The notes beneath the pieces are model-generated. The model had not been told where the DNA came from. It did not search any database and was given only the letters and a program-made list of their open reading frames with translations. The position numbers were made by a program, and so were the translations under genes. DNA of 63,092 nucleotides, filler included, from Reclinomonas americana ATCC 50394 (Eukaryota), in the NCBI GenBank assembly GCA_048213135.1. It is 11 parts of 11 records of this genome, joined end to end, with 100 filler letters (N's around TTAATTAATTAA, not from the genome) between each part and the next. Parts side by side here need not be neighbours in the genome. Positions count along the whole stretch, not along the records: positions 37,911 to 45,047 come from AFZH01017409.1; 10 more parts are not named here. The stretch is one strand, 5' to 3'. Shown here in pieces: positions 2,780 through 45,978 of this stretch (positions are counted from its first letter, which is position 1; each line of letters opens with the position of its first letter).

Positions 2780-2879
2780 NNNNNNNNNNNNNNNNNNNNN
2801 NNNNNNNNNNNNNNNNNNNNNNNTTAATTAATTAANNNNNNNNNNNNNNNNNNNNNNNNNNNNNNNNNNNNNNNNNNNN
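2780..2879. other. Assembly linker (N-run + TTAATTAATTAA + N-run); same linker at 13096, 14731, 21222, 31109, 37811, 45048, 47029, 60205, 61665
   Basis: 100-nt N spacer carrying a six-frame stop cassette, repeated ten times in the window. Confidence 0.98.
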
Positions 2880-5873: not shown

Positions 5874-8631
5874 TTATGTGGGATTCCAGCCTCGGAAGGG
5901 GTCGCGCGCTGAGCCACCTGCGACAATGTCGTCGTCGTCGGGGATGCGGGTTCGGTTGCGACGAGCCGAGTTTGGGGCGCTGTTTGAGGCTGGTGCGGCG
6001 GCGGAGGCAGGAGCCGAGGCGGCAGCGGTGGCGGTCCCGGAGGATGCTGGTGCGGCTGCTGAGGGTGCGGCTGCTGATGCTGCAGGTGCTGCAGCAAAGG
6101 TGCTTGGTCGCGCGGTGCGACCACCCCCGGCACCGCCAGCCACGTCGCCTCTGCGCTGCAGCCGTCAGGCGCGGAATGGAGGGAAGTGGGGAGGAAGGTG
6201 GAGGAAAACGCAACTCGTTGGGCATCGGCATGTCCAGCTCACTCAGCAGGTCCACAAAGCGCACTGCACTGCAGACTTCGGTCGAACCTGCACGTGGCGC
6301 AGCCCGAGTGAGCGATTGGTGACTTCTTCAGGAGAAAATAAAGACACATACCGACGATAAAGTCCGTGTCAGACGTGGAGCCAGCGGCGGCGTACACGGC
6401 GCGCAGCTCGGCATACGTGACCGCACCCAGCACAAACACAATCACTCGTTGCGTCTGCGATGGGGTGTCGCGGTTGAGACGCAACTCACGACCATTTGCA
6501 AAAATCATCACCAGTCAACAAACCTGTGGCTTTACGCGGCGACGTGTGGCGGGGCCGGTGGATTCCGGTGGCGTCGTGTACATGCAGTCGGCTGCAGAGA
6601 GCTGGCCCGCGACCGAATCCTACGAGGAGGGGACCAAATGTCAACGAACGGCGACGAGAAAAGAAGGAGTCCACAGCGAGCATCACACCTGCAGCAGCTG
6701 TGCAACAGTGGGCGTGTGGCGATTGAGAATCACAAACTCCTCGCCCGGGCGCCGTGCTTTGCGCAGTTCCCTGGACCGATTGGTCTCCTTCAGCTCGCGT
6801 GTACCCGTCTTGCGATCCGACACCACCACCGGCACGTCAAGGTAGGCCACATTGCGCACGGCGTCTTGCAGCTGCACCACGTGTCAGTCAACCCATGGCA
6901 CACCAGTGCGAGAGCTGAAAGTCAGTACTCACCGCCGTTGGCAACTGCAGCCGGTGCATCAGCTGCATGCGCTGCTCGTCTGTCATTCCGCCGACCACCT
7001 TCATGTAAATCAGAAGCAGCCGCACTTGGTCCACGGGGCTGCCACGATTGAAAAGATCCAACAATGAGCAACCCGCCTTTTCCCGAATCACAGAGACACG
7101 CACACCGCCGCAACTCTGCACCAGCACTGCTGTCAATGACATCGAGTAGCGCCTGATACGGCGACTTGATCTTGCCTCCGTCTGGATCAGCTCCCAAAAT
7201 CAGATCCTCCTCCAGCTGCGCCAGACGGCGGAGACCGCGCCGCCTCTCCGTCTCGATCACATCGTGTGTAATCGACGCCACCACCGTGTACTCGTCCACC
7301 TGCTGGCGGTAGGCGGGCAGAGCGCGCAGCACGGCGAGCATGGACGTCGTCGAGGTCTCCTGCACCGGCGAGTGTTAACTTCAGGAGGGACAGCAAACAG
7401 GAAACAGCACCACGCAACTGGCGTTGGTTGATAGCCGGCGACCTTGTTGCGACTGAGGCCGAGCAGGTAGCTTTGCAGCGGCTCGGCAACGTCGCCCACG
7501 TGCCGATGGCGCATCTGTGTCCACAGCGTGTTCGAATCGCGCAGCAGGCCGCGCACTTTCTTGCCACCCTCGACCGCCACTTCATACACGTCCCCCTTGA
7601 TGTCCAGCAAATCGTAGGCCAGCGATTGCACGTGATAGTCATGATACAGCGGCGACACCACGTCGAAGCGCCTGTCCACAATGATGAGCGTGGCGCGATC
7701 GTTGTTGAACTGGCGGCGACGAATCAATCAGCAAGCACACGCAGACTGGGATGAAAGGGGAAGAAGAAGAGAGACCTTGAATGTCGGCACGTCACTCTTG
7801 TATCGAAGCAGGTTGTTCTCCACCATGGTCGCCACACGACGACTGGTCTCGTCGGTGGCCGTGTACCGAATGAACGGGTTCTCCTTGAGCGAAATGCACA
7901 GCGTGGTGAGCTGCTGCGCAATGTTGGCAACCTCCCGTGCCCTGTGCGCCAGCGCATACTCGCTCTGCGAGTACAGCATGTACATGCTGTGCGGCCGACC
8001 GAGCGAGAACACTCGGCTCTCGACCACCCAAAAGTCCAGATTGAATTCCACTGCACACCGCAGCGAGTGAGACACAAAGAACGCAGCACCTCTCCACGCT
8101 CGCACAGACCGAGATCCGCCAGTCGCTGGGCGGCTCCCGAGGACACCAGCACCTCCAGCACATCATCACTGATGCTTCCCGTGGTGTACACATACGAGGC
8201 TCCATACAGTCGCGTGCGCGTTATATCGGCGGCAATCGCGCGGAACGAGGCTACAGTTGGCGCCACAAAGTACATGGCATCCAAGTCGGGAAACGGTTGC
8301 CGCTGCAGCTCCAGTCGCTCAACAACTGACACACACACACACACACAATGCAATCAACAACAGATTGCATGCACGCACTCTCTCTCTCTCTCACACACAC
8401 ACCTGCCACACGCAAGGCAATGTCATCCATGGTGCATGTGCAGTCGAGAATGCGTGTGGCATACTCGTCGACAATGAGCACGCGATGTGAGCTGCTCGAG
8501 TCGCCCAGCATGTCGTGCAGAATGCGTTCGCGCATCATCTCCCGCAGTTGTCCCTCCACACGCGGGGTGTTGGCGGGCATAAAGTTGGCCGAGGCCAGAG
8601 CCGCAAGTGGGTCCCTGCTCCCCGAGGCCAT
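5874..8631 (-). CDS. SEC1: Sec1/Munc18 family SM protein, paralog A
   Basis: RVLIVDEYATRILD, ERLELQRQPFPDLDAMYFVAPT, ATLIIVDRRFDVVSPLYHDYHVQSLAYDLL, RVIVFVLGAVTYAELRAVY, IVGST; multi-intron; ends RGWNPT*. Confidence 0.93.
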
Positions 8632-8744
8632 CTCTCTCCCTCTCTTATGAGAATCGAATCGCGCGCGCGCGGTCGGAAAAAAACGCCAACTATTTTCACT
8701 TTTGTTGTCTTCCTCCGTGCCACCTGTGGCGCCACCGCAGCTTT

Positions 8745-13095: not shown

Positions 13096-13256
13096 NNNNN
13101 NNNNNNNNNNNNNNNNNNNNNNNNNNNNNNNNNNNNNNNTTAATTAATTAANNNNNNNNNNNNNNNNNNNNNNNNNNNNNNNNNNNNNNNNNNNNAGAGA
13201 GCGCGCATGACGTCGCGAAGTCACCATATTACATTATAGACAACCGACTTCCGCGA

Positions 13257-14730: not shown

Positions 14731-14830
14731 NNNNNNNNNNNNNNNNNNNNNNNNNNNNNNNNNNNNNNNNNNNNTTAATTAATTAANNNNNNNNNNNNNN
14801 NNNNNNNNNNNNNNNNNNNNNNNNNNNNNN

Positions 14831-16080
14831 TTTCACGACTCTGCAAACACCCATTCGTGAGTACACTCGTGCGGTGTCAGCGTGCACATTGATCAGGCGC
14901 CTGCACACCTTGGTCTTCTCGTAGCGTGCCAGTGTCGAGTTCTGTTCCAAATCGTTGCCGTAGTTTTGCACAAACGGCGCCACATCGGCCAGATGCAGAT
15001 GCCTGACGCGGCGCCACAAATCATTGGCGTCGCCAATCACACCCTTCTGGCGACCGCCGAGACCCGTAGCATCCTCGCTGGACTCGTACTCGTAAATGTT
15101 GTTTTCGATCTTTAGCATGTCGCGAGCCAACGACTGGAAGTGGTAATCGTGGTACACGGGAGTAACCATGTCGTACCGTCGGTCAATGATCAACAGAGTG
15201 CCACGCTCTGGCACAGGCTGCAAAGAGAGAGATACGTGATCTACACACACCACACGCACATTTGCACAACAGAAACGCACCACAAACGAGTTGGGTTTCG
15301 ACAAGAAGTTCTCCATCAGCGCCTCGAAACGCTGCGCCAGCACCTCACACGACTCGTCGCCGACCGAGTAGCGCACGTGCGGGAACTCGTGGAACGTGGT
15401 GCACACGGTGACGAGACGCTCGCCGAGCTGCGACAGCTCCTGATCGCGTTTCACAAAGGCGTAATCGCTGTCCGAGTACATCCGATAGAAGCTCTCTGGC
15501 CGACCCAGCGAGAACACTCGGCTCTCCATCACCCAGTAGTCGAGATTGAGCTCGTGAATGTTGTGCAGGTACTTGGCCACACGCGGCTCCTCCAGCGCCA
15601 TGCGCAGATTCTTGCCGACCGCCGACGTGAAACACACCCACGCCGAGTTGTACATGGGGCCGTCACGAGACGCCGTCAAGTCCGCCACAATGGCTCGCAC
15701 CGAGGCCTCTGTCGGCTGGATAAAGTACACGGCCTCCAGGTCGGGGAAGGGCTCACGCCGAAGCTCCAGCCGTTCAATCACTGCACTCATGGGGCGATGA
15801 TTACAATGACAACGATGATGATGTCAAAGGCGACGCCTGCCTCACCAGAGATGTTGGTGTCCATGACGTCGCGCATGCCGCAGGCCGCATCAAGGACACG
15901 CATGGCGTACGCATCGACGACGAGCACGCGCCACATGCCAGCGTCCGAGGGAAGCGCGCGAAACATCTCATTCAGAATGCGCTCCTTGGACAAGCGACGC
16001 AAATCGCCTTCGTACTTGGGATGATCGGCTTCGCACTTGAAGCCGTTGCCACTGCCCGCTGCCGCTGATGACGACGCCAT
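14831..16080 (-). CDS. SEC1: Sec1/Munc18 family SM protein, paralog B; 3' half in gap
   Basis: WRVLVVDAYAMRVLDAAC, IERLELRREPFPDLEAVYFIQPT, GTLLIIDRRYDMVTPVYHDYHFQSLARDML, DLWRRVRHLHLADV. Confidence 0.92.
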
Positions 16081-16469: not shown

Positions 16470-19400
16470 ATGGGACTCGCCGTAGTCGACATGTTGCGTA
16501 CGAGAGATCGCGCGCGCGAGAGAGCAAGAGAGAGTGAGAAGTGTGAAGGACTGATGTCTGTGTGCATTCCTTGTCTTGCAGTGTGTTGATTGTGGTGTAC
16601 ATGGCTGGCATTGTGGCGGTTGGCCTGATTGCACAGCGACAGCTGAGCAAGGCCATGGCTCGAAGCAGCTCCGGAGGCGCAGAAGCTGGTCTCGGAGCCT
16701 ACTTTTTGGGTTCAAGACAGATTCCGGTGTGTGCAGAGTGTGTGCTCGCAGCGTGTGCCTGTGTACATGAGAAAGAGAGAGAGAGAGAGAGAGAGAGCAA
16801 TCTGCGACAGAAGCGCACGAGACACGGATTTGGGCTGCTGCATGCAGTTTGTCTTGTTTATTTTCTCTCTCCGCCTCGCACAGTGGTGGTGTTTGGCGGC
16901 ATCGGGAATGGCCAGTAACTTGGACGTGTCTGGTACTGTGTGGCGTGCTCTCTGCGCGCAGGGCGGGTGAAATGACTGAGTGTCGGTTTCCGTGCAGGCA
17001 CGATGATCAACACGGCATTCGTGTTTGTGATTGGCGTCAGTGGGCTGTACATTGAGGTGCGTGTGGATAACACGTATGCGTGTGAGAGAATGAGAGTACG
17101 GATCTCGTTTATAACCGGTGCTGCAGATCCGAGGCGGTGTGTCACTAATGCTGGCCTTCCTGCTCGCCTTCCAAGGCAAATGGACGCGTCGCAGCGGGGT
17201 GCGTTGTCATGTTTCTCTCTCTCGTTGTGTCTTCGTTCCCATGTGCGCTCACCAATTGCGGTAGGTGATGACCAGTGCCGAGTGGATGCAATTGCGCTTC
17301 GGCAACGGGCGCGAGGGTGATGCTGCGCGCATTCTCAGTGCGGTCGCATCGCTCATTAGCACCATTCTGCAAATCACCTACTTTGCGGTTGGTGCCGGCA
17401 AGTTCTTTGCCGAGTTCATGGACATTGGCAATTGGCTCGGCTTGTCTAATGAGGTCTGCTCCTACCACTCACACTCGATCACCACCACTCTGCTCACTGG
17501 CCAGATCAGTTTTGGTCGTCCATGATCCTGGTCGGGCTCTCCTTGATTTACACGGCAGCTTCTGGCCTCTACGGTATGTGTGTCTCCCAATTACATCACC
17601 TCTCTCTCTCTCTCTCAACCGCGCCCTGTCTGTGTGGCAGGTGTGGTGTGGACCGACGTGTTCCAGGCTCTGCTCATTCTGCTGGTGTGTTCTGTGTGCG
17701 TTCAAGCTTGCTCGCACGTGCGCGTATTCATTGTGCCCGCGCAGAGCATTCTTTACATTGTCATTCGCGCCATGATCGAGGTGTGTGTTTATTCTACGTC
17801 AACCGCGGTCACATGTGCGTGTTTTTCATGCACGTGGCGAACAGGTGGTGCTGCCGGAGAACTTCATCGTCTCAGTGCCGCTCATTGGTGGCGGCTTCCG
17901 CGCTCACTCTGTTGACCGCGCCGACTGGACGTCGCCAGTGCCGTCGTGGTCCCTCAACTTCCCTGCAGACTCCACCTACGACATTTACAATCGATTCGGT
18001 GCGCGCCATGCGTGGATTGCTATGTTTTCTCGCAGCCGTTCATGTTGCTGACTTGTCGTCGTGCTAGGCGTGGCCATTATTTTCTACCTAAGTATGTCTG
18101 CTTTCATCTCATAGACAGCACTCGTGAAGTGCGCCACTCACACTTCTCGTGCGCAGTGAAAACCACGATAGAGGGGCTCGGTGGTCCGAGGTGTGTGCAA
18201 TGTTCGAGTCGCATCTCCTGTCACCGCCCGTCTCACTGCTCGCCACCTCGCACAGTGGCTACATGGCACAGCGGTACCTGTCGGCGAAGGACGACGTGGA
18301 AGTCGGGAAGATTACGGCACTGTGGACCGTGCTGCTTGGTTTCCGGTGGCCATTTATCGTTGGCATGGCCATGCTTGGAATCAATGCCACCGCAACGTCC
18401 ACGGTGACCATTCAGGATCCGGAGCGTGTGATCCCGGTCGTCATCAGCACACTGGTGCCCACCGGCTTCAAAGGCCTGCTGGTGGCCGCCATGTTGTCGG
18501 CCGCCATGAGCACCTTTGACTCCACGGTCAACTGTGGTGCCTCGTACTGGGTGCGCGACTTGTACCAGACGTACATTTCGCAGAATGCGACGCAGCGCAC
18601 GCTCATGTGGCACAGTCGCTTGTCGAGTGTGGCCATTGTCATTCTCGGCATCATCCCCACGCTGTTCATTTCGGACATTAACGAGATTTGGTGTGTGCAG
18701 TCGACCGCGTGCATGCTGTGAGTCGGCATTCTCACACTTGAGCAGGGGCTGGCTGACCATGAGCATTGGTGTCGGCATGTACATTCCACTTTTCCTGCGC
18801 TGGTATCACTGGCGCATCAATGGCTGGGGATTTGCTATCGGCACTGGCTGCGGCATGATTTCCGCGGTCTTCACCAAGGCCTTTGCCTCCGGCATTCCCG
18901 AGTACTATAGCTTCATCATCGCGGCCAGCATCTCGTTTGTGGGCACGATTCTGGGCTCGTGTTTCACTCCAGAAACAGACATGGGTGCGTACTCATCCTC
19001 TCCCTCCCTCCCTCTCTCTCTCTCTCCGTGCGACGTTGCTTACGGTCGTCTTGCTGTTGCTATTGTTTTGTCTCCGATAGCCGCCCTGCGCAAGTTCTAC
19101 ACGTGCACTCGGTGCGTGGCGCACGTAGTGTGTGGGCCCTGATACTGCACACACCGGCTGACTGCTGTCTCCCCTTGCATTTGCGTAGACCGTTCGGATT
19201 CTGGGGTCCAGTGCGCCACGGCATGGAGAAGGAGATGCTGAAGCGCGTGCGGAGGGAGAATGCGTGGGATATCGTCAGCTTGGTGATCGCAGTGCCTGGG
19301 CAAATTCTCCTCTTTGTGTTCCTGATGGTTCGGTGATCACCATCAGCTTTCGCAATTGTGGCTCTGCTTGTGCTAACCTGACGCGGCTCGGCTGCAGTGC

Positions 19401-19622
19401 GTGGTGGTGATGAACTGGGCGGCCTCGCTGGTGCTCGGTGCCATTGTGGCCAGCATGTTCGTCTCCCTGTACTTTGTCTGGTGGAGGCGACTGGACGACG
19501 AGGTTGTCACAGGCAAGGCGGCCACGGAAATAACAAACACCGCCATGTGGTCAGGCGACGCCGAGGAAGAGGAGACACGCCTCCGACCGGCTGGCGCGTT
19601 ATCATCGGACGGTGCCGACTGA
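16470..19622 (+). CDS. Sodium:solute symporter (SSS/SLC5 family), 16 introns
   Basis: YFLGSRQIPWW...SGMASNLDVSGTM, MTSAEWMQLRFG, YTAASGLYGVVWTDVFQ, QRYLSAK, GLLVAAMLSAAMSTFDSTVN, RDLYQTY, LRWYHWRINGWG. Confidence 0.9.
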
Positions 19623-19707: not shown

Positions 19708-35198
<15,491 letters not shown>

Positions 35199-35796
35199 CT
35201 TGCACGCTGAGTGTGCAGGTTGATGAGGGAGAGTGACAAAGAGAGACAAGCGAGTCGCACGTCGGAAAAACTGCCACGACTTGTCCTTTACAGCCACGTT
35301 AACGTTGCTGCCAGAAGAGTTAACAACAAGAACAACAACTTCTAATACAGAGAGCAACACAGCTGCACGATGATCACCATCTTGAGTGAGCACCAGAAAC
35401 TGACATGCATATGTCCACATCGAGAAAAAAAGTTAACGTTGATCGCGAACAGTCGAGAAACTGCGCGCGGCTCGTGCACGTGACAAGCATAATGCCTCCT
35501 GAAAGGGAAGATGACTGTTGGAGAAGTAATATGTGTTTGTATACTGTTGGTGTGCCAAGGTCATTGTCGGCAAGGGATTTGTGGGTGTTTATCGCATTGG
35601 AATGTGGTGAATGAAGTGTTTTGTTTGTTTCAACAGTGGTGTGTGTGCAGCTAGCTACAAGCACAAAGCACTCTTTTCCCGTGAACACAAGCCAGCGGCT
35701 TCACAAATATACAGCAAGATAAATATCGATATGTGTCGTACAATTTGTTAACGTTCTTTTGCGAACCACTTGGCACCTCAGTACGTGTGCCACTCT

Positions 35797-36597
35797 TCAA
35801 GGCCTGCCAGAGTTGGCGTTGATCTTGCTGGTCATGGTCACGTCCAGCTTCAGCCCGGCGGCCTGGATGAACTCGTCGCGCTTCGCGGTCGTCTCGAACG
35901 CGAACTTGAAAGCCTGCATGGTGGAGAGAAGTGAGTTCGCCATCACCTCTTCACCTGCACAATGTGTGGGCTCACCTTGTCGCCGAGCTTCTTGACAACA
36001 ATCACGTAGCGCGCCTTGCCGGCCACCTGCACCGTCGCCGGCACCTCAAAGTAGATGTTGTTGGTGTCGTTGATCTCGAACTTCTGCTTGCCCGGCAGCT
36101 TGCCGCGCTTCCACGAGATGTTGCTGCTCTCACGCAACACACATGTAAGCACAAATGCACGTGCTCCCAAGGAGAGAGAGAGTGTGTGTGTGTGTGTGAC
36201 GCAACACCACGGGCTTTGGTGCCACGCCATGCACAGCCGGCGGTGTCACTGTGGTGAGATCGACATCGCGCAGCTCCCAGTTGGTGTACGTCCTCTGCTT
36301 GCCGCCCTTGGAGCACTTGTACACGGGGAACACGGCCGTGGCCTCGACCATCTCCTCCTCGTCCTCGTCGTCCTCCTCCTCCTCTGCCTCGAAGAAACCG
36401 AGGGCTGGTGTGGTGGCGACAAGTGAGAGACAAGGAGAGAGAAGAGGGAGAAGAAGGGAATGCACGCAACCGTCGAGGTCCTTGATGCTCTCCACCATCT
36501 CCTCACGCGTCATGCGTCGTGCGTCAGTGGTGCCTGCCAGCAGTGCCACTGCGGCCACGAGTGCGGCGAACAGCAAAACGACGGAAAAGGCACGCAT
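35797..36597 (-). CDS. Signal-peptide protein with acidic segment and PH-like domain (~195 aa)
   Basis: Signal peptide MRAFSVVLLFAALVAAVALLAGTTDA; EEEEDDEDEEE; VYKCSKGGKQRTYTNWELRDVDL...AFKFAFETTAKRDEFIQAAG. Three introns; strongly G/C-ending codons. Confidence 0.7.
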
Positions 36598-37017
36598 GCT
36601 TTGCTCACGATGAGAAACTCAATGTGTGTGAGAGATATCTTGGGTTGGATATCGCGAGCACCCGTACGTGCGTGGCTGCATGCAATGCTTGGAGATGTGC
36701 GGGCTTCCGCTCACTCAGCACCAAGCTGAAGATGCACGCGGGGGAAACTGCAGACGCGCTGCCAATGACCACTGGTTGTTGCTGTTCGGCGCACGAGTAT
36801 TCTACAGTGAGAAACGCATTCGTAATTCCAACATCGTTAACGTCGCCACTGCCAGTACCCATGCCAAAGAATGCAAAGGTAGCTTCTCGGACCGTCGACA
36901 AGTCGATGAAGATGGTGAGCGACTTTGTTCCTGCTTGGCTATCTGTTAGTCATGACGAGAAGTTCTCAACCTCGAGTATGGTCAGTGAATTCCAGAAAGA
37001 GAGAGACGGACCTCAGC

Positions 37018-37156
37018 GTGTCACGATGCCTGTCTCCGTGCACCTCACACCTCACCAACACCTCCAGATACAGTCGCTCGGATTCGGCGGGACTTATTGA
37101 GAGTGAGAGAGACAGTGTCTCGATGCCTGTCTCCGTGCACCTCACGCCTTACCAGA
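37018..37156. repeat. Imperfect ~40-bp direct repeat, two copies about 97 bp apart
   Basis: GTGTCACGATGCCTGTCTCCGTGCACCTCACACCTCACCA versus GTGTCTCGATGCCTGTCTCCGTGCACCTCACGCCTTACCA. Confidence 0.85.
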
Positions 37157-37312
37157 ATGATAGAGAGACAGACAGCTGCAAGAACGGTAACGAGATCCAA
37201 CCTCCCGGTTGCGAATACCACTGCAAACACCCAAGCTGTCACGAGTACACTCTGCCAGACAGAGTCTCCCCACCAGAAAGCCAGGTAAAAGAAGTAGAAA
37301 GAAAAACACAAA

Positions 37313-37756
37313 CTAAAACAGCAAATCGTCGTCCTTCTTGCCGCCGATTATGCTGAGTGAGGCGGGTGCGTCGCCACGTTGAATCATCTCGGCCTCGACG
37401 GCACCAAACTCCTCCTTCAGCTGCTCCAGCTCCTCCTCGGCCTTGGCCTTCTTCTTGCCCTGCACCTTCTTCAAGCGGAAGAACTCCTCACGATCCAACT
37501 CGTCGAGCTCCGAGATAATGTACTGGATGGTGCCCTCGATACGCGGCGTCACCACCTTTTCCAGCGCATTCACACGTCGATTGGTGACCTTGATGGCCAG
37601 ATCGAGCGTCAAGAACGATGTTTGCAAGCCGGCCAGCAGAATCAGCTCCTCCATCAGCTTCGAGTACGCAGTGCGGCATCGTCGAATGTAGTCACCACCA
37701 CGTGCCAAACCCGTCATCTCCATGCCTGCACCACCAAACCAGAAGTCAGTCGAGAT

Positions 37757-37810
<54 letters not shown>

Positions 37811-38323
37811 NNNNNNNNNNNNNNNNNNNNNNNNNNNNNNNNNNNNNNNNNNNNTTAATTAATTAANNNNNNNNNNNNNNNNNNNNNNNNNNNNNNNNNN
37901 NNNNNNNNNNGACCCACACTCTCCATCACTGCGTAGCTAAAGTTGCCGGCCTGTGCATGAGTACGAGTGTGAATGAGCATGCAAACCCACGCTATTTTTG
38001 ATGATGTTTTGCCTCATACCTGGAACTTTGCCTCGGCGAGTGATATGGAGGCGTCGGGGAACGACTTGCCGACATTGGTCTTGGTGTCGGCGATCTTTTG
38101 CAGAATCGCTCGAAAGCGCACCGTCAGTGCGTCAGACTTCTTCTTCAACAATGAGTGGCCCTTCTTGGCACCGACAAGACGCTAAAGACACACAAACATG
38201 GGTGTGTGTGTGATTGGCGAGAAGAGCAGGGCGTGCGTGTGTTTGTCAACAAACCTGCTTCATGGACATCAGCGTCATGCGGCTCGGCAGCACCGGCAAC
38301 CGCGACTTGGTATCTGACGACAT
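37313..38323 (-). CDS. ATP6V1D: V-type H+-ATPase subunit D (spans a gap)
   Basis: [35 protein letters not shown] ... [26 protein letters not shown]...[19 protein letters not shown], ending DDDLLF*. Confidence 0.97.
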
Positions 38324-38466
38324 TCGAGAGGTGTCTCTTGCTGCTTACTAGTGCACAAAGAGACGCGCGGGGTGGTGGGTGATGGAGAAGAGTGTGCGTG
38401 AGTGTGAAATGGGACAATGCAAGATGTGACTCACGCGGATTGTCACATCACACACACACGTGAAGC

Positions 38467-40468
38467 ATGCGCGCGGCGGTTCTGCTTGTTGTTGTCTTGG
38501 CCGTGTCGGTGGTGTGCGTCAGCGCACTGCGCACCAACTGGAATGATGAGGGCGCCATGCACGAGTTTCGTCCATTATTGTCGGGGGTTCTTGCATGTGT
38601 GCGCGCGTGTGTGTGTCTATCTTCCTCCGCTCTCCTCTCTGTATGTGTGTGAGCATGCCGGGAAAAGGCGCTGACGAGTGGTAATGTGCGTGCGTGTGCG
38701 TGTGCGCACAGCGGCATGAAGGTCAATGGCGAGGTCATCTCCAGGGTTCGTCACGCCACGCTCTGCGCCCCTCTCTTTCACGTGTGCTTACCCTCTCTGT
38801 CCCCTTCTCTCTCTCTACACACATACAGGAGGAGTGGACGCGTCGTCATCCGGAGCACAAGCCTCGCGTGGTGCTCTCGGAGGAACCGTGGCAGCAGGTG
38901 GAGGCCGGAAAGCTGACGCTGCCGACGGCGTGGGACTGGCGCAACGTGACTGGCCCCAACACCAACCTTGGTATGTGTGTGTCTGAGCGTGTGTGTGCGT
39001 GTTTGTCATCAGCGTGTGTGACTGACATGATTCTGCGCGCCATCAGTCACCTTTTCGCGCAACCAGCACTTGGTTTGTCCCTCCCATGTCTCTCTTCTCC
39101 ACTTCTCACTCACTTCTCTGGGTAGCCGGTGTACTGCGGCAGCTGCTGGGCTCATGTTTCGTCCTTCGCTGCTTGCAAATGCGTGTCTCGGCTGCTGACT
39201 CGTTCTCGCCACCAGGGCACCACCTCGGCGCTGTCGGATCGCATCAAGATCCTGACCAAGGGCAACTGGCCGGCGGTCAACCTGGCGCCTCAGTACCTGC
39301 TCAACTGGTGCGTACAGCCGTGATTTGAGTTGTTGTTGTTGGCCGCTGCTGCTGCTGCTTACACTTGTTTTCGGCGCAGTGGACCGTGCGGTGGCTGCGG
39401 TGGCGGCTTCCCGGGCTGCGTGTACGAGTTTGCGCACGACAATGGCCTCGTCGATGAGACGTTGCGTTTGGCGATCAGCGTGTACGGGAGGCGACGTGTG
39501 TTTGTGTGTGACATTCCCCTGCCTGCAGCTGCGCTCCGTATGAGGCGAACGACCTCGACTGCAATGCCATCAACACGTGCAAGAACTGCAACTCAGTTGA
39601 GTCTGGCACCCCATGTGAACGCACATGTATATATTATATGCTGATGCCACCCACCTGTAGGACAAGTGCTGGGCGGAGACCAGCTTCAAGATGTGGAAGG
39701 TGTCCGAGTACGGCGATGTGTCTGGCGCGGTGCGTGCACAGCCTAACTCTTTGTCTCCAGCAACACGCTGACATCCCCTTCATTCTTGTGTGGGCATATC
39801 GCAGGCCAAGATGAAGGCTGAGATCTTTGCCCGCGGTCCGATTGCCTGCGGTTCGTGTGGCCAGTGATCGCTTATTTTTTTTTTGCTTCACGCTCCTCAA
39901 TGCAATCAACCCTCCGCGCAGGCATTCATGTGACCAACAAGTTCGAGTCCTACTCGGGTGGTGTCTACTCCGAGTTTGTCGTCTTCCCGACGGTGATTTC
40001 ACTCTGCTGTCGGCACACACATTCCCCTGTCACGTCGTCGCTGACCGTACGTCCAACAGGCCAACCACGTCATCTCGGTCGCTGGCTGGGGTGTGGAGAA
40101 CGGCGTCGAGTACTGGATTGGCCGCAACTCGTGGGGCACCTACTGGGGGTACGCTGCCGCCGCTGTCATTGCTCATGTCTGTCTCTCCTTATGTTTGCTT
40201 ACTGTGCACTCTTTTTTGTGTGGTCATTTTACAGCGAGACTGGCTGGTTCCGCATCATGGTACGTGTGTCTCTCTCTCTCTCAATCGTACCCCCTTGCAA
40301 TCTCTTGTGCTCATTGCATTGCGCGTCATTGCAGATGCACAAGGACAACCTGGGCATTGAGGGTGTGTCTCTATTCTCACACACTCACCACATGAAGTCA
40401 TCTGTACTCACAAAACTGCGTGTGCGCCATCAGATGACTGCAACTGGGCCGTCCCGATTCTCCAGTAA
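38467..40468 (+). CDS. CTSZ: Cathepsin Z/X (papain family C1A), 14 introns
   Basis: Signal peptide, [96 protein letters not shown]. Confidence 0.96.
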
Positions 40469-40619
40469 CCGGCGTGCTTGACTCGCCCTGTACGAGTGTT
40501 GTTGTTGTTGTTTTCTTTCGGAGTTGTTTTTGTGTGCTGCCTGCGCTTGTACGCAACAATCATGCATAGTGTGAAGTGCGGCAACGATCTCTGACCCCTG
40601 AAGAGAGCAGTTGTTATAG

Positions 40620-43600
40620 TTACATTCTATCTTCTAGCACGATGCTGTGGTAGGGCGACGTCGAGTTTGCTCGCCGTGACTCGGCCGCCGCCAGCAGCAT
40701 AGCAGAAGAGCTGCGCACCATGGTGGGCACGTGTAGACCGCGTGTGGCGGCCACGACGGAGGGTTCGGCGCCGCCCGATTCGGCCACCAACTCCCTCACT
40801 GTTTCGCGCAGGGCGCGAACCACGAGATCGTACATGTCTGTACGACTCAACAGCAGCTGCGCGCGTACACGGGTGAGAAGCTGGGTGATCGCCAACCGTT
40901 GTCGACAACAAGCACGAACCTTGAACTGCGGACGATTGGCGGGCGCGGCGGCGGCAAGTAGTGACAGTGCATCGGCAAAACCGAGCTGCCTCGGAGATGT
41001 GATGGGTGTTCCGCCGCTTCCGGAGCCAACGGACGATTGCCGTCGACTGTGACCGCTGACGGCAATGCTCGGACGGGGCAAGTCGAGTCGAGGCGACGTC
41101 GATGGTGTGTTGCCGGAGCTGCCGGCGTTGATGGTGAGGAAGGCCGAGGGACGCCGTATATGACCGCCGCTTGGCACCTCAATGCGTGGTGATACGGTGG
41201 GCGTGTTGGTGCCGCTGTTGGAGACTGTCAGAAAACTGGAGGGCCGTCTCATGTGTCCTCCTCCTCCGCCCGTGTTGCGTGGCGATGGCACAGGCGTTGT
41301 GTTGCCGCTGGAGGTGATGGTGAGGAAGCTCGACGGGCGTCGCGAGTGCCCACTGCCACCGCCGACGGCGACGCTCTCGCGATGGCGAGCCAGACGAGCA
41401 GAGATCTCGTGGCGTGTGTGGGTCGTTCTCGTCGTGTGCGCCAAGCCGGTGCGTGCAATCGCACACAACTCCACGTACTGGCGGAGTTTGTCACAGTGTT
41501 CGCGGCGTCGTCGATGCAGGTTGCGCACAACGGCATCGAAGCGGATCTTTTCTGTCACGGCGGTGTAGCGACCGAGTGCCGTCCACAATTCCATGGCTTC
41601 CCGTTTCATGGTCGATATTCTGCCAGACAGCAGCATGGCTACACATCAGCAACAGTACGATCAGAGACGCGTCAGTGCTCGTCATTACCTCTGTGCATCG
41701 ACGGCCTCCTTCATGACATCCTTCTCGGCCGGTGGCGACGATGGCCCGTCCCTAAAGGTGACGCTGCGCACCGTATCGACCAGAATGTCCTGCGCGATAG
41801 AGTGAGTTTCGTGCAACTCTTGGCGGCTTCAGCGGTGGACACGTACCCGATTGCCGGCCGAGAGTTTTCGTCGCAGTGGCCGTCCTGCCCGTGCACCCTT
41901 GGTCCTCAACGCAGACTTTTGCGTGTTGCCGGTCGGTGCAAGAGCAACACCGGTTGTCGTCTCGTAGAACTCACGCAGCTCTTGCTCAACATCCATGAAC
42001 TGTGTGCGCGCGACAGTGTAAGGCGCGGCACATGTAGCAAGTGAAGAAAAAAAGGTGACGCACCTGCAGCGTGAGCGTCCGCACAGTGGCGTGCACGTGT
42101 CGATAGAAGCGACACAGTACAGCGTGGGCGAGGGTCACTGCGTTGGGAGGCACATGTACGCATGAGAAACGCGACAACACAAGCAGTATGTGACAACGAC
42201 CATGGTGCGTACCCTTGCGATGGTAAGCGCGAATGAAGAGCGACACGGATTGTACACGATGCAGACTGGTGAAGAACGCACGCAGAACGGAGCATGCTTT
42301 GCGCTTGCGACAAATTCTCACAACGAGCTTGTAGCGCCAGTAAACTCTGCAGCACGTGACATGTGAGTCGGGGTCTGGCATCAGGGAGTTAGAGCCTCCA
42401 GCAAGAATTGCAGTAACCTTCGAATGACACGTGCGGCCTTGCAGAAACGAGCCACACGGCGCCGATGAATCATGGGCCACAGCAGCGTCTCCAACACTCG
42501 CACGGCGCCAATCTCTCTTCGCAGTGTGCGGAATTTCTGCCCGTGCGCACAAGCTCACGTCAGTGCCCTAGAGCCTCGCACACGTGCACCGCCACACCAT
42601 CTCCACTCACCAACAGCGACCTCCCAAAGTAATCCACTGCAAAACCGGTGACTACACACTTGAACAGCAGACAAATTCTGTCGCGATCCGTGTCGATGCG
42701 TTCCAGCCGCTTCCCCTGGGTTGTGAAGTCAGTGCGTGCACACTCCTTCTCTTTTTTCGACACACACAGACCGTCTTGATTTTGTGTTCGTAGGCCTGCA
42801 ACTTGCGCAGACGAATCTTCTCCTGGAACTCGTTGAATTCCTCGATGCGTTCCCGCATTTGCTCTGCATGCTCCCGTTGCTCTTGTATCTGTCGGTCGTG
42901 CGAGTGGCGTGAGCGATGGATGCTACTCGTGCACACCTCTCCTCAAAAACGACGAAAAACCAACCTTGCGAACACGTTCCTCCACTGGATTGCTCACTGG
43001 TCTCCTAAAGTCGATCCGGCCGACGTTGGAAGCCGCCCACACTTTCTTCAAGTGCTCCAGCTTCTCCCTCTTGATTTCTTTTTCCATTTCCTCTGTTTGT
43101 GTGCGTGCATGAGACAAGGAGCTCGCTGATCAACCGCGTATGAGAACGAGGCTACCTGCACGCTTGAACAACTCCGAGAGCGCATTCGGGTGATCCATAA
43201 AGTGCGCCTTGGTCATGGCCACACGTTCCGCCGCGGACGGTTGTCGCTTGCGCATGGCAGCCAGTCGGGACTCTGCGCTGTTTCGTGAGACTCTCGTATA
43301 GCTATACCATCGCAGCAGCAGTAAAAAAAAAAGAAGCACACCGAGAACAGTCGCCGAGACTGGCCGATGGCGCCACTTGGAGCCTGTGCACGTAGTGTGA
43401 GGCTCGCCGTCGAGGGCAAATGTGGCGACAAGTGGCAACTCACCATCATCGCCCGCCGAGTCCTTGTTCGCCCCAGCCGCGTCCTCGCGATGCTTCTTCT
43501 CCGCGACCTTGCTCTCCTCTGTGCCACATGCTGCGTTCAGTCTCTCGCTCACTCCTCTCGAGCTCCACTCATCCACCCCCCGACAATCACACCTGCTTTC

Positions 43601-44790
43601 GTCTTGAGCTCCGCATACATGGCGTCGAATACAGGTGCCGGCACCGGCTGCGGCATCACGGTGCCTGCCAGAAAACTCGTGTCGCCAATCACCATCGACG
43701 ACGCCCGGCCGACCAACACAGACGCCGAGGTTGGCCGACGAGTCCACGCGTCGCGTGACGAGGGCGACCGATCCAGCAGCATATCCGGTGGCACCACCGT
43801 CAACATCATTCCGCGGGGAGGTTGCTCGAACGGATTACGATTCTCGGCGTCGGCCTGCGGCGACGGCGACATGCCTCGTATCGAACTCTGTCGACGCGGA
43901 GCAAACATGGGGACAGCGACACTATTGCTGCGACTGCTGGCGGTGATAATCGTCGTCGGGGCCATCATGGTGCTCTGTGGCGTTGCCTTGGCGTTGAGTG
44001 CGCCCAGCATGTCACCATAGTAGCTGTTGCGCTGCGGAAGAGGGCGGAAGAGAACTTGTCAGTCACTGACTGGCGCACACGCACACGCACGATCGAGGTT
44101 AGTTACCGACGAAGCCAGTGCACTCAGACCGCGTGCTGAGCAGGCCGACTGAGGGCGATCAGGAAACACCTTGAGCTGTGTGCGTGATCGGATGAGTCAC
44201 ACACGTGCGCACACACACACACTCTCTGTCAACCGCACACGCACATCGCGAGCAGAGCGTGGAGTGGCATAGTGTACTCGACTGGTGTTGTTGAGCACAC
44301 GCGCTGTGGCCGAGGAGGTGATCGCAGTGGAGGAGGAGGTGTTGAGCGTGAGTCGACCACTCTCCGGTGCCGTGCGACGAGTGGACGCGCTGCGTGATCG
44401 CCGTGGCAAGCCCATCACACTGCTCCCTCTTCTCTCCGTGGGTGATATGGTGGCGCTGCGTGACGACGAGTGCCGTACATCGCCACAGTCACCGTCGTCG
44501 CCACTGCTCAACATTTCGCGATCGAGCAAAACGGGTCGAACGTTTTGTTTTATCGAATACTTGCCGTTTCGGAGGGGTTTGTGTGAAATGCCGCACCGAA
44601 TGCAGTTGTCGGGTTGCCAGGAAGGGCACTCGGTAGCAGCGCACACGAGAGTGCACACAAAGAAATGTGCGCGCTGCAGCACCCGACGCACAGGCCGGTG
44701 TGATATCGAATCATATCAATCACAACGGATCGTGCATCTCGCGGGACTTCGAACAGCAGGCAATTGTTTCTCAAAAATGGGGTTCATTTT
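40620..44790 (-). CDS. Large multi-exon hypothetical protein(s), Ser/Arg-rich with coiled-coil and IQ-like segments
   Basis: Successive minus-strand exons with GT-AG introns (e.g. QEQREHAEQMRERIEEFNEFQEKIRLRKLQ; repeated GH.RRPSxFLT); ends IVLEDRM*. 5' boundary uncertain. Confidence 0.45.
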
Positions 44791-44884: not shown

Positions 44885-45978
44885 TCATGGCACCCATCGT
44901 CGGTCGGCAGCGTTGGCTGCCGCCGGCGACTGCGTCTGTCCGCCCGATCCTCGTCTCGAACCGGCCGAGCTCCGGTGGCTCTTGCTGCCGCTGGAGCGCA
45001 GCGAAGACGATCGTGAGGTCACGGACGTGGCGGATCCGTTGGGCGATNNNNNNNNNNNNNNNNNNNNNNNNNNNNNNNNNNNNNNNNNNNNTTAATTAAT
45101 TAANNNNNNNNNNNNNNNNNNNNNNNNNNNNNNNNNNNNNNNNNNNNTAGTGAGGCGCCGTACAAGGTGAACTGCACCCTGTTTTGTGTGGACAGGTGGA
45201 GTGATGAGTAAAACAGATTGATTGTTCCTACTCTCCGGCGTACGTGCGTATGGACGAAACTGAGCTGATGTTCGCGGGTCCAATGCTGCCTTGTGTGCCG
45301 GCGCTCGCCCCAGCACACGCACCTGCCTCTGCTCTCCATCCACACAGATCACCGACGGGATCAGACTCAGTGCGTTGGTGTCCTCCAGCAACAGCAGGCC
45401 GCACAGTGAGGTGGACGGTGCGCATGCTTCGGCCACTTGGGCCGTCATGACAACGTCCTCCTCCTCTTCTTCCTCCTCCTCTTCCTCTTCCTCCTCTTCT
45501 TCCTCTTCCTCCTCCTCCTCCATCATGCGCATGGCATCGTCCTCGTCGTCGTCATCCGTGTGCTCGTGAGGCGCAGGAGTGACGACCACCGAACAGGGCA
45601 ATCGATTGGAAGTCGTCGACGGTTGGTGCAGCGGGTGGAACGGGTTGTCGGTGTGCTCTGTCGGCAGCGTGGCAGTCCATCGTCGAACCACAGTGCCGTG
45701 CATTCTCTCGCGTGTGGGGGGTGTGGTGGTCTTGGCTCTCCACGCGGCTACAAAGGAACAATTGGTGAACACGAGGCTCTGCAAAAAGGAGTTCAGACAC
45801 ACGGGACAGCATGTTCGAATCGTCGTGCGGAAGGGAAAGAGGGCGCAGAGACAGACAGGCACACACGCGCGCGTATGCAGACGAGGGAAAACGCAAACCT
45901 CGAGTTGTCTTCACGAAAACGTGACTTCTCTCGCGCGATGCCGAAATGACAAATTCCAGTTTCCGGCCGATGACTCAT
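44885..45978 (-). CDS. Acidic protein with possible FHA-like domain (spans gap)
   Basis: Poly-E tract then VRVLGRAPAHKAALDPRTSAQ|VQFTL, resembling aprataxin/PNKP-type FHA. A Ser-rich end ...RRWVP* lies beyond the gap and may belong to it. Confidence 0.4.

What the first reader, a model, noticed from the sequence alone, without database searches (positions are those of the whole stretch)
38467..40468. Donor class is predicted by the last exon base: G gives standard, non-G gives shifted
Seen in cathepsin Z: all 10 standard donors follow an exonic G, and all 4 shifted donors follow A, T, C, A. In the symporter, 14 of 15 standard donors follow G and the one shifted donor follows T. PUF60 shifted donors follow T, C, T. 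Exceptions exist: some non-G|GTRNGT standard sites, and G|GTTGCGT at 36470. Inference: in the shifted class the intron's G+1 takes over the U1 pairing normally made by exonic G-1, so the exon end is unconstrained. This dependence also argues against a sequencing artefact.
Basis: partly seen in the sequence, partly recalled or inferred. Interest (0 to 1): 0.75.

Follow-up and report, generated by a model that had tools for sequence, protein, structure and literature searches.

The report
One-base-shifted intron starts free the exon end

Summary
In the cathepsin X/Z gene (38467-40468, +) all 10 standard donors follow G and the 4 shifted donors follow A, T, C, A. The symporter and PUF60 counts also match.

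Across the window I predicted introns with my own gene finder, which never scores exon bases at donors. Of 144 retained introns (23 of 167 dropped):
- 83 of 99 standard donors (+5G) follow G.
- 4 of 37 shifted donors (GTTNHG) follow G. Fisher p = 2.7e-15.

Several shifted junctions lie in gap-free conserved protein blocks or at exact residue boundaries.

The shifted motif is the standard one displaced by one base. The extra base is only ever T: GTTGCGT occurs 43 times against 17 expected, while GT[ACG]GCGT is not enriched. The exon end before shifted donors looks like position -2 of standard donors, close to background and A-enriched.

This fits a shifted U1 register, known in human only as a noncanonical register (human frequency not seen here). 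The evidence is sequence statistics only: no U1 gene, RNA data or whole genome was available, and duplex energies with a human-type U1 are inconclusive. I rate it a new variant of a known kind, of moderate to high interest.

The parts
38467..40468 (+). Cathepsin X/Z coding region with 14 short GT-AG introns (53-147 nt)
   Evidence: My gene model. blastp to fetched homologues gives 55-62% identity over about 240 residues. The alignment is gap-free through the conserved part. Peptidase_C1 hit on the exon at 40060-40176.
38565..38571 (+). Shifted donor a|GTTTCGT (phase 2, intron 147 nt)
   Evidence: It lies in the unconserved N-terminal part, so only the frame supports it.
39156..39162 (+). Shifted donor t|GTTTCGT (phase 0, intron 60 nt, 39156-39215)
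   Evidence: Read through in frame, the query aligns to PDB 1ef7 as residues 1-10 = chain 25-34 and 32-58 = chain 36-62. Exactly 20 residues are therefore inserted. Gap-free.
39461..39467 (+). Shifted donor c|GTTGCGT (phase 2, intron 68 nt)
   Evidence: The junction DET|C lies in a gap-free conserved block. The intron must be removed to keep the frame.
39596..39602 (+). Shifted donor a|GTTGAGT (phase 0, intron 65 nt)
   Evidence: The junction lies in a loop of variable length, where the model is one residue shorter than the nearest homologues.
38746..38751 (+). Standard donor g|GTTCGT
38971..38976 (+). Standard donor g|GTATGT, with a tandem alternative t|GTGTGT at 38977
   Evidence: The alignment was made with 38971. 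The finder chose 38977.
39073..39078 (+). Standard donor g|GTTTGT
39308..39313 (+). Standard donor g|GTGCGT
39730..39735 (+). Standard donor g|GTGCGT
39851..39856 (+). Standard donor g|GTTCGT
39993..39998 (+). Weak donor g|GTGATT (no +5G), after G
40149..40154 (+). Standard donor g|GTACGC
   Evidence: The junction YWG|ETGW is gap-free against homologues.
40260..40265 (+). Standard donor g|GTACGT
40363..40368 (+). Standard donor g|GTGTGT
57875..59520 (-). ERGIC3/Erv46-like gene in which 5 of 6 donors are shifted
   Evidence: ERGIC_N and COPIIcoated_ERV hits on its exons. Model aligned to P0242 and nine others.
59309..59315 (-). Shifted donor c|GTTGCGT
   Evidence: Lies in the gap-free block TIHFNITFP. 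Sliding both ends by one base would give R where homologues have N or H.
59198..59204 (-). Shifted donor a|GTTGCGT
   Evidence: Lies in the gap-free block ACDILT. Sliding both ends would give S at a hydrophobic column.
58961..58967 (-). Shifted donor a|GTTGCGT
   Evidence: It lies in a variable region, so homology does not fix it.
58755..58761 (-). Shifted donor c|GTTGCGT
   Evidence: Lies in the invariant CCNTC block.
58210..58216 (-). Shifted donor a|GTTTCGT (90-nt in-frame intron)
   Evidence: The flanking exons map to Pfam profile positions 15-183 and 185-227. PGVFFIYD is contiguous.
36464..36470 (-). The exception: g|GTTGCGT
   Evidence: A 66-nt in-frame, stop-free intron in a gene without known relatives. 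Not validated.
16493..16499 (+). The symporter's one shifted donor, t|GTTGCGT
   Evidence: second version of the model. Also listed.
55594..55600 (+). PUF60-like gene, shifted donor t|GTTGCGT
57341..57347 (+). PUF60-like gene, shifted donor c|GTTGCGT
57503..57509 (+). PUF60-like gene, shifted donor t|GTTGCGT
7412..7418 (-). Sec1 paralogue A, shifted donor a|GTTGCGT (phase 0, after GYQPTP)
   Evidence: Same position and phase as the standard donor of paralogue B.
14902..14908 (-). Sec1 paralogue B, standard donor g|GTGTGCA (phase 0, after RYEKTK)
   Evidence: The paralogues are 42.5% identical over 334 residues.

Best explanation
Both donor kinds belong to one population of short major-type introns. 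Both are read through the same seven-base U1 target, G-(G/U)-U-G-C-G-U.

In the standard kind the first G is the last exon base. It pairs with U1 C9, and the cut falls after it (G|GUGCGU). In the shifted kind the second base is U, so the only GU starts one base earlier and the cut falls before the first G (N|GUUGCGU).

U1 then sits one base out of step relative to the cut:
- G+1 pairs with C9.
- U+2 faces C8 as a mismatch.
- U+3 pairs with A7.
- The GCGU core pairs as usual.

The last exon base now faces U10 instead of C9. It therefore loses its G requirement and behaves like position -2 of a standard donor. The cut itself is set later by the GU, not by distance from the U1 helix.

Shown here: the association, the one-base displacement of the motif, the T-only extra base, the reality of several shifted junctions, and the identity of the two classes in every other feature.
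For: - Association: 83 of 99 standard donors follow G against 4 of 37 shifted donors. Exon bases were never used in donor scoring. Two cruder counts agree.
- Homology-checked genes only: cathepsin plus ERGIC3 give 11 of 11 standard donors after G and 0 of 9 shifted donors after G.
- Displacement: the learned donor profiles show +4 to +7 of the shifted class equal to +3 to +6 of the standard class.
- The extra base is T only. GTTGCGT occurs 43 times against 17.3 +/- 4.5 in shuffles, and GGTGCGT 36 against 17.2. GT[ACG]GCGT occurs 37 times against 43.8.
- Exon end: -1 of the shifted class (A15 C9 G4 T9) does not differ from -2 of the standard class (A29 C32 G15 T23; p = 0.57). It differs from -1 of the standard class (p = 8e-14).
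- Against the base before exonic non-donor GTT (G 13.7%, A 22.8%), G is not depleted (p = 0.42) and A is enriched (p = 0.012).
- Pair counts with the 11-nt U1 5' end printed in PMC4856993: shifted donors make 4.3 pairs in the canonical register and 6.4 in the +1 register. Standard donors make 7.5 and 4.7.
All 8 donors with a weak intron part follow G. Standard donors after non-G are richer in exact GTGCGT (8 of 16 against 18 of 83).
- Same intron type: median length is 68 in both classes, with the same CTNAY branch motif and distance, the same CAG acceptor and the same first base of the next exon.
- One paralogous intron position has g|GTGTGC in one copy and a|GTTGCGT in the other, in the same phase.
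- The shifted register is an established concept for human 5' splice sites (PMC4856993, passages read).
Against: - With a human-type U1 5' end, nearest-neighbour energies are near zero for shifted donors. The mean optimum is -1.6 kcal/mol against -5.9 for standard donors. The +1 register is better in 12, the canonical register in 2, and both are zero in 23 of 37.
- Pair counts do not separate the shifted register (6.4) from a bulged-U register (6.7).
- N|GTGCGT would give as many pairs without an internal mismatch. Yet after non-G, shifted donors outnumber standard ones 33 to 16.
- Position -2 of the shifted class shows no resemblance to -3 of the standard class beyond chance (p = 0.17, and p = 0.54 against -2).
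- The A enrichment rests on 15 of 37 donors.
- Class frequencies come from a gene finder whose last version was trained on the two motifs.
- No RNA evidence, no U1, U5 or U6 sequence and no second window of this genome were available.
Confidence: 0.58

Rival explanations
1. Bulged-U register. G+1 and U+2 pair with U1 C8 and A7 as usual, one of the two U's bulges out, and the GCGU core pairs one base further along.
For: - The pair count is as high as for the shifted register (6.7 against 6.4).
- The four shifted-class donors that do follow G include three (22676, 22910 g|GTTAAGT, 23044 g|GTTACGT) for which the optimum duplex is exactly this register, at -5.0 to -8.0 kcal/mol.
- The register is validated in human (PMC4856993).
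Against: - C9 stays free in this register, so -1G should be at least as favoured as in standard donors (84%). It is 4 of 37 overall and 1 of 29 for GTTGCG.
- A bulged base need not be T, yet GT[ACG]GCGT is not enriched.
Confidence: 0.12
2. A different reader. Either the organism's U1 has a remodelled 5' end (for example G and C where other U1s have the two pseudouridines), or a second U1 variant exists that matches GUUGCGU fully, so that the class is defined by another RNA sequence and not by a register slip.
For: - The G and C preferences at +3/+4 (standard) and +4/+5 (shifted) are not explained by a human-type U1.
- GTTGCGT is very stereotyped: 24 of 37 shifted donors carry it exactly.
- U1 genes with different 5' ends within one protist are reported for the diplonemid S. 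specki (PMC12621601, section 8 read).
Against: - The U1 5' end is conserved across almost all eukaryotes (recalled, not tested).
- A single U1 with an extra A that matches GUUGCGU would still put a C opposite -1 and so predicts -1G, which is not seen.
- The two classes share branch site, length and acceptor.
- No snRNA gene could be examined.
Confidence: 0.17
3. History, not mechanism. Shifted introns are a separately gained family (introner-like elements or a burst of insertions at non-G sites), and the exon-end difference reflects insertion sites.
For: Shifted donors are unevenly spread among genes: 5 of 6 in ERGIC3 and 0 of 13 in the symporter. Heterogeneity p = 0.065.
Against: - Intron bodies of the shifted class are no more alike than those of the standard class (mean local score 6.66 against 6.49, maximum 15 against 21.5).
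- Lengths, branch motif and acceptor are the same in both classes.
- One paralogous position carries one class in each copy.
Confidence: 0.08
4. Artefact of my gene models or of the assembly.
For: - The models are ab initio from 63 kb, and the last version favours the two motifs.
- There is no RNA support.
- Several in-frame introns were missed or are ambiguous (GT tandems; 56604-56681).
Against: - Shifted junctions at 39156, 39461, 59315, 59204, 58761 and 58216 sit in gap-free conserved blocks or at exact residue boundaries.
- The heptamer excess and its -1 bias are seen without any model.
- Exon bases were never scored at donors.
- An erroneous extra T would keep -1G at 84%.
Confidence: 0.05

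Closest known systems
Shifted (+1) register of 5' splice site / U1 pairing in human (Roca and Krainer 2009, cited as ref. 10 in PMC4856993; the original paper was not held)
   Same: GU is used for the cut while all U1 pairs are displaced by one base. The cut site is not measured from the U1 helix. The test oligonucleotide in PMC4856993 Table 2 likewise has a non-G exon end before GU.
   Different: Here it would be a major class: 37 of 144 predicted introns in this window, with one dominant heptamer, GTTGCGT. Nothing here is experimentally tested. The human frequency was not seen in the passages read; that it is a handful of atypical sites is recalled.
Bulge +2/+3 and +3 registers (Roca et al. 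2012; Tan et al. 2016, PMC4856993, passages read)
   Same: An extra nucleotide lies near +3 and the downstream pairs are displaced by one. Three or four g|GTTA(A/C)GT-type donors here fit it.
   Different: The main class lacks the -1G this register should favour, and it tolerates only T as the extra base. The human table lists 68 and 51 predicted sites for these two registers among 201,541 sites.
U12-type (minor spliceosome) introns
   Same: A long, stereotyped 5' motif with no exon consensus.
   Different: The motif is not (A/G)TATCCTT. The branch site, its distance and the intron length are the same as in the standard class. The U12 consensus is recalled, not taken from a call.
U1 5'-end variants in diplonemids (PMC12621601, sections 5 and 8 read)
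   Same: A precedent for more than one U1 5' end in one protist.
   Different: Those species show (G)/GTATG or non-GT-AG introns and a branch motif in only 2-16% of introns. Here the branch motif CTNAY is found in 107 of 136 introns. No shifted class is described there.
U5-based explanation of the conserved exon-end G (PMC8283771, abstract read)
   Same: It addresses why the last exon base is G and how it trades off with +5G.
   Different: If U5 selected the exon-end G, the preference should follow the cut site. Here it follows the U1 register and disappears at shifted donors.

Membership tests
Shifted (+1) U1 register 5' splice sites | Downstream consensus displaced by exactly one base relative to the GU that is cut | tested here: met
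   Donor profiles: shifted +4G .63, +5C .65, +6G .94, +7T .73 against standard +3G .61, +4C .43/T .37, +5G .89, +6T .72.
Shifted (+1) U1 register 5' splice sites | More potential pairs to the U1 5' end in the +1 register than in the canonical one | tested here: inconclusive
   Met by pair count (6.4 against 4.3). By nearest-neighbour energy, both registers are zero for 23 of 37, +1 is better in 12 and canonical in 2. A human-type U1 was assumed.
Shifted (+1) U1 register 5' splice sites | +3 is U, so that it can pair with U1 A7 | tested here: met
   GTTGCGT occurs 43 times against 17.3 expected, while GT[ACG]GCGT occurs 37 against 43.8. 24 of 24 GTnGCGT donors have T, although the finder favours T.
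Shifted (+1) U1 register 5' splice sites | The exon end faces U10 and not C9: no G preference, A favoured | tested here: met
   G in 4 of 37, baseline 13.7%. A in 15 of 37, baseline 22.8%, p = 0.012. Composition matches -2 of standard donors, p = 0.57.
Shifted (+1) U1 register 5' splice sites | The organism's U1 5' end carries ...ACC at positions 7-9, and suppressor U1s act in the shifted register | not testable with these tools
   No genome held. No snRNA in the window. The suppressor test is an experiment.
Bulged-nucleotide (+2/+3) U1 register | G-1 still pairs with C9, so -1G is favoured | tested here: not met
   1 of 29 GTTGCG donors follows G. Met only by three or four g|GTT(A/G)(A/C)G donors.
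U12-type introns | Own 5' motif together with its own branch-site motif close to the 3' end | tested here: not met
   Branch five-mers, branch distance (20 against 18.5) and length (68 against 68) do not differ between the classes.
Introner / transposon-derived introns | Intron bodies similar to each other | tested here: not met
   Shifted-to-shifted local alignment scores are no higher than standard-to-standard scores.

The most novel reading that the evidence does not exclude
This lineage runs two parallel ways of recognising intron starts within one major spliceosome. One is a usual U1. The other is a second U1-like RNA, or a remodelled U1 5' end, that is fully complementary to GUUGCGU and ignores the exon. 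About a quarter of its introns would then be defined by a reader not known elsewhere.
Probability: 0.12. Interest if true: 0.85.

Novelty: new variant of a known kind. Interest (0 to 1): 0.62.

Why it matters
In human cells the shifted U1 register is documented as one of several noncanonical registers. Here it would be an everyday mode used by roughly one intron in four, which shows how far 5' splice site recognition can drift while GT-AG chemistry stays fixed.

It also works as a natural experiment on an old question: what selects for G at the end of exons? In this organism the preference follows the U1 register and vanishes when the cut site moves by one base. That points to U1 C9 pairing and away from later contacts at the cut site, such as U5.

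On the practical side, gene finders that use a single donor matrix will miss or misplace about a quarter of the introns in this genome.

Tried and rejected
**Data that could not be obtained**
- No RNA holder was listed for 34000-43900, so no reads could be laid.
- No whole genome is held.
- No Rfam family reached its threshold. At E up to 1 only simple-repeat 'miRNA' hits and weak snoRNA hits appear, and no snRNA.

**Organism not identified**
- The best relatives are 61% identical for the V-ATPase D exon and 62% for cathepsin.
- The protein atlas gave family but no useful taxon.
- A diplonemid origin was considered and set aside, because those species rarely show a branch motif.

**Searches that gave little**
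- The homologue search with the cathepsin pro-region exon found nothing.
- A 30-residue query was below the length limit.
- Pfam on 82 single exons gave only coarse support.
- Roca and Krainer 2009 and Roca 2012 are not held.
- Earlier-findings look-ups returned nothing relevant.
- Six literature searches found no paper describing shifted donors as a major class in any lineage. The searches were on 'shifted register', 'shifted base-pairing', 'noncanonical register' with 'protist', GTTGCGT and GUUGCGU. Subscription journals and supplements were not seen.

**Gene finder**
- The first version, using codon bias only, was too noisy.

**Ideas rejected**
- Introner family.
- A separate intron type with its own branch site.
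- Introns slid by one base at both ends, TT...AGN. The first base of the next exon has the same composition in both classes (p = 0.94).
- Active avoidance of G before shifted donors: not significant against the exonic GTT baseline (p = 0.42; for GTTGCG p = 0.079).
- The RRM1/RRM2 introns of the PUF60-like gene as a second paralogous pair: they are offset by one codon.
Full report
**What the window is**

The window is 63,092 bases at about 57% G+C, with 20 masked runs of 44 N. It comes from an intron-dense eukaryote that I could not name. No genome is held and no RNA run was listed. The closest proteins in the large collections are only 61-62% identical.

Pfam on single exons identifies these genes:
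- threonine synthase
- a WD40 protein
- an SSF symporter
- a papain-family protease
- an RRM protein (PUF60-like)
- ERGIC3/Erv46
- V-ATPase subunit D
- a HECT ligase
- two Sec1-family paralogues
- a CN-hydrolase

**How introns were called**

No RNA data could be used, so I wrote a small dynamic-programming gene finder. It uses codon log-odds, requires GT...AG and open frames, and checks split codons.

- The second version added a crude intron score: length, a CTNAY branch motif, and G-T at +5/+6 or +6/+7.
- The third version learned a two-component donor profile over +3 to +9, a branch profile, an acceptor profile and a length density from the second version's output.
- In no version do exon bases enter the donor score, so the finder cannot create a link between the last exon base and the donor class.
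- It can bias how many donors of each class are found.
- It misses some in-frame, stop-free introns (for example 56604-56681).
- It cannot resolve GT tandems (38971 or 38977).

Real introns are short, with a median of 68-69 nt. They have CTNAY about 20 nt from a CAG acceptor.

**The observation in the cathepsin gene**

The third model gives 14 introns. They match what I read by eye, except for the tandem at 38971/38977.

The spliced protein matches fetched homologues at 55-62% identity, with as few as 3 gap positions over 237 residues. In the multiple alignment it is gap-free from RNQHL to the C-terminus, apart from a one-residue difference in a loop whose length varies among homologues.

The 60-nt intron at 39156-39215 can be read through in frame. 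Against the solved cathepsin X chain 1ef7, query residues 1-10 match chain 25-34 and residues 32-58 match chain 36-62. Exactly 20 residues are therefore extra, and the junction is WAH|G.

The donor list shows ten standard donors, all after G. The four shifted donors follow A (38565), T (39156), C (39461) and A (39596).

The symporter count is also exact: 15 standard donors, of which 14 follow G and one follows A at 18092, plus one shifted donor after T at 16493. So are the three PUF60 shifted donors after T, C and T, and the exception g|GTTGCGT at 36470.

**Is it more than chance?**

In the third model, 144 of 167 introns were kept. The 23 dropped rows came from genes scoring below 15 or had lengths outside 45-160, and they are listed.

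| Donor class | Follows G |
|---|---|
| Standard (+5G) | 83 of 99 |
| Shifted (GTT, no +5G, +6G) | 4 of 37 |
| Other (weak intron part) | 8 of 8 |

Fisher's test gives p = 2.7e-15. Other cuts of the data agree:
- With all 167 introns the counts are 93 of 117 and 4 of 40.
- With only introns that must be removed and are free of GT tandems (103 introns), they are 60 of 71 and 2 of 25.
- The cruder second model gave 81 of 115 and 12 of 65 (190 introns).
- Without any model, G precedes 3 of all 43 GTTGCGT in the window and 36 of all 128 GTGCGT (p = 0.003).
- Restricted to the two homology-checked genes, 11 of 11 standard and 0 of 9 shifted donors follow G.

Read the other way, after G there are 83 standard, 8 other and 4 shifted donors. 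After non-G there are 33 shifted and 16 standard donors. So 'G gives standard' is nearly a rule, while 'non-G gives shifted' holds two times in three.

**Are the shifted donors real?**

GTTGCGT occurs 43 times on both strands, against 17.3 +/- 4.5 in dinucleotide shuffles; none of 100 shuffles reached 43. Its excess is comparable to that of GGTGCGT, at 36 against 17.2. 26 of the 43 are predicted donors.

In ERGIC3, five of six donors are shifted. Four of them (59315, 59204, 58761, 58216) fall inside gap-free conserved blocks against ten homologues. For 58216, Pfam profile positions run 15-183 and 185-227 across the intron.

The odd alternative that both ends are slid by one base (TT...AGN) would put S at a hydrophobic column (59204), and R where homologues have N or H (59315). 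For 10 of 37 shifted introns it gives the same mRNA, and for 8 it gives a synonymous change.

**Anatomy of the two classes**

The learned profiles show the shifted donor to be the standard donor moved by one base:

| Shifted class | Standard class |
|---|---|
| +4 G .63 | +3 G .61 |
| +5 C .65 | +4 C .43 / T .37 |
| +6 G .94 | +5 G .89 |
| +7 T .73 | +6 T .72 |

Aligned on this core, both classes read G-(G/T)-T-G-C-G-T. With G in second place the cut is after the first G. With T in second place the cut is before it.

The extra base is T and nothing else: GT[ACG]GCGT is not enriched, at 37 against 43.8 +/- 5.5.

Everything else is shared between the classes:
- Median length is 68 and 68.
- Branch five-mers are the same.
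- Branch-to-acceptor distance is 20 and 18.5.
- The base at -3 is C in both.
- The first base of the next exon has the same composition (p = 0.94).
- Only body G+C differs slightly (0.53 against 0.56, p = 0.011).

Intron bodies of the shifted class are not alike, so this is not a recent mobile family. Spread over genes is uneven but not significantly so (p = 0.065).

**What the exon end looks like**

- Before standard donors G is 84%, against 24% before exonic non-donor GT (p = 4e-36).
- Before shifted donors the composition is A15 C9 G4 T9.
- Compared with the base before exonic non-donor GTT (A 22.8%, C 28.0%, G 13.7%, T 35.5%), G is not depleted (p = 0.42; for GTTGCG 1 of 29, p = 0.079).
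- A is enriched (p = 0.012).
- This composition does not differ from position -2 of standard donors (p = 0.57). It differs sharply from their -1 (p = 8e-14).

The exon end is therefore freed, not inverted, and it behaves like the position one step further from the core. No signal was seen at -2.

**Mechanism**

The simplest reading is the shifted U1 register described for human sites (PMC4856993, passages read; the original 2009 paper is not held):
- G+1 pairs with C9.
- U+2 faces C8.
- U+3 pairs with A7.
- The GCGU core pairs as in standard donors.
- The last exon base faces U10.

This accounts for the one-base displacement, the T-only extra base, the loss of -1G and the rise of -1A. It also implies that the cut is set by the GU and not by distance from the U1 helix.

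Donors with a weak intron part all follow G (8 of 8). Standard donors after non-G are enriched in exact GTGCGT (8 of 16 against 18 of 83).

One paralogous intron position in the two Sec1 genes carries g|GTGTGC in one copy and a|GTTGCGT in the other, in the same phase.

**What speaks against it, and the rivals**

With the human-type U1 5' end, nearest-neighbour energies are poor for shifted donors in any register:
- The mean optimum is -1.6 kcal/mol, against -5.9 for standard donors.
- Both fixed registers score zero in 23 of 37. The +1 register is better in 12 and the canonical register in 2.

Simple pair counts favour a non-canonical register (canonical 4.3, +1 6.4). They do not separate it from a bulged U (6.7).

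The bulge is disfavoured because it leaves C9 free and so predicts -1G, and because a bulged base need not be T. It does fit three or four donors of the type g|GTTAAGT, g|GTTACGT and g|GTTGAGG.

Pairing alone also does not explain why, after non-G, the shifted form is twice as common as N|GTGCGT, which has as many pairs and no mismatch.

The strong G and C preferences in the core are not explained by a human-type U1 either. This keeps alive the possibility that this organism's U1 5' end is remodelled, or that a second U1 variant exists. Variants with different 5' ends are reported in a diplonemid (PMC12621601, section 8).

A single U1 with an inserted A that matches GUUGCGU would still place a C opposite -1, so the data argue against that particular form. 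None of this can be settled without the snRNA genes.

**Comparison with what is known, and novelty**

Shifted and bulged registers are established for human splice sites. In the table I read, validated non-canonical registers cover 1.5% of 201,541 human sites, and the +2/+3 and +3 bulges cover 68 and 51 predicted sites. That the shifted register itself covers only a few dozen sites is recalled, not seen.

Here the shifted form makes up 37 of 144 predicted introns in one window, with one dominant heptamer. Six full-text searches found no description of such a donor class as a major feature of any lineage.

I file it as a new variant of a known kind. It is not U12-type and not introner-like.

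**Verdict**

- Interest is 0.62. It would be a genome-scale use of a register that in human is a minority, noncanonical one. It also bears on why exon ends are G, since here the preference follows the U1 register and not the cut site. That runs contrary to what a U5-based account would predict (PMC8283771, abstract read).

Noticed in passing
window 22904-22910, 23038-23044, 22670-22676 (- strand): Three donors of the form g|GTTAAGT, g|GTTACGT and g|GTTGAGG follow (A/C)G. With a human-type U1 they fold best with G+1 on C8 and a bulged U (-8.0, -6.1 and -5.0 kcal/mol). They look like a small separate bulge-register subclass inside one large gene.
   Followed up: partly
window 57875-59520 (-) and 16470-19622 (+): Shifted donors are unevenly spread among genes: 5 of 6 in ERGIC3, 0 of 13 (third model) or 1 of 16 (second model) in the symporter. 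Heterogeneity over genes with at least 5 introns gives p = 0.065.
   Followed up: partly
window 10257, 39993, 52804(-), 25778(-), 23304(-), 31698(-), 7775(-), 25297(-): All 8 donors whose intron part fits neither class follow G, mostly AG or GG. This looks like compensation between the exon and intron halves of the donor.
   Followed up: partly
window 56604-56681 (+); also 55797-55913 (+): In-frame, stop-free introns (for example g|GTTCGC...CAG inside RRM2 of the PUF60-like gene) are read through by my gene finder. The intron count of the window is therefore an underestimate.
   Followed up: partly
window 2780-2879, 13096-13195, 14731-14830, 21222-21321, 31109-31208, 37811-37910, 45048-45147, 47029-47128, 60205-60304, 61665-61764: There are ten pairs of 44-base N runs, each pair separated by 12 bases. 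Some cut genes; for example Sec1 paralogue B ends at 14833.
   Followed up: no
window 30920-31080 and 31209-31286: A simple-repeat hairpin region gives sub-threshold matches to several miRNA families on both strands (best 52 bits against a threshold of 100). This is most likely low-complexity sequence next to a masked run.
   Followed up: no
window 6683-9987 (-) and 14833-16080 (-): Two Sec1-family paralogues, 42.5% identical over 334 residues, lie 5 kb apart. They share at least two intron positions and phases. The longer one carries a long N-terminal coiled-coil extension.
   Followed up: partly
exons of all predicted genes with score 15 or more: G is under-represented before exonic non-donor GT (23.9%, against 31.9% G in exons) and even more before GTT (13.7%). 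This may reflect avoidance of cryptic G|GT donors in coding sequence.
   Followed up: no
window 21460-35198 (-): Three adjacent large predicted genes on the minus strand, followed by a HECT domain at 19708-21097, may be pieces of one giant HECT-type ligase gene with more than 55 introns.
   Followed up: no
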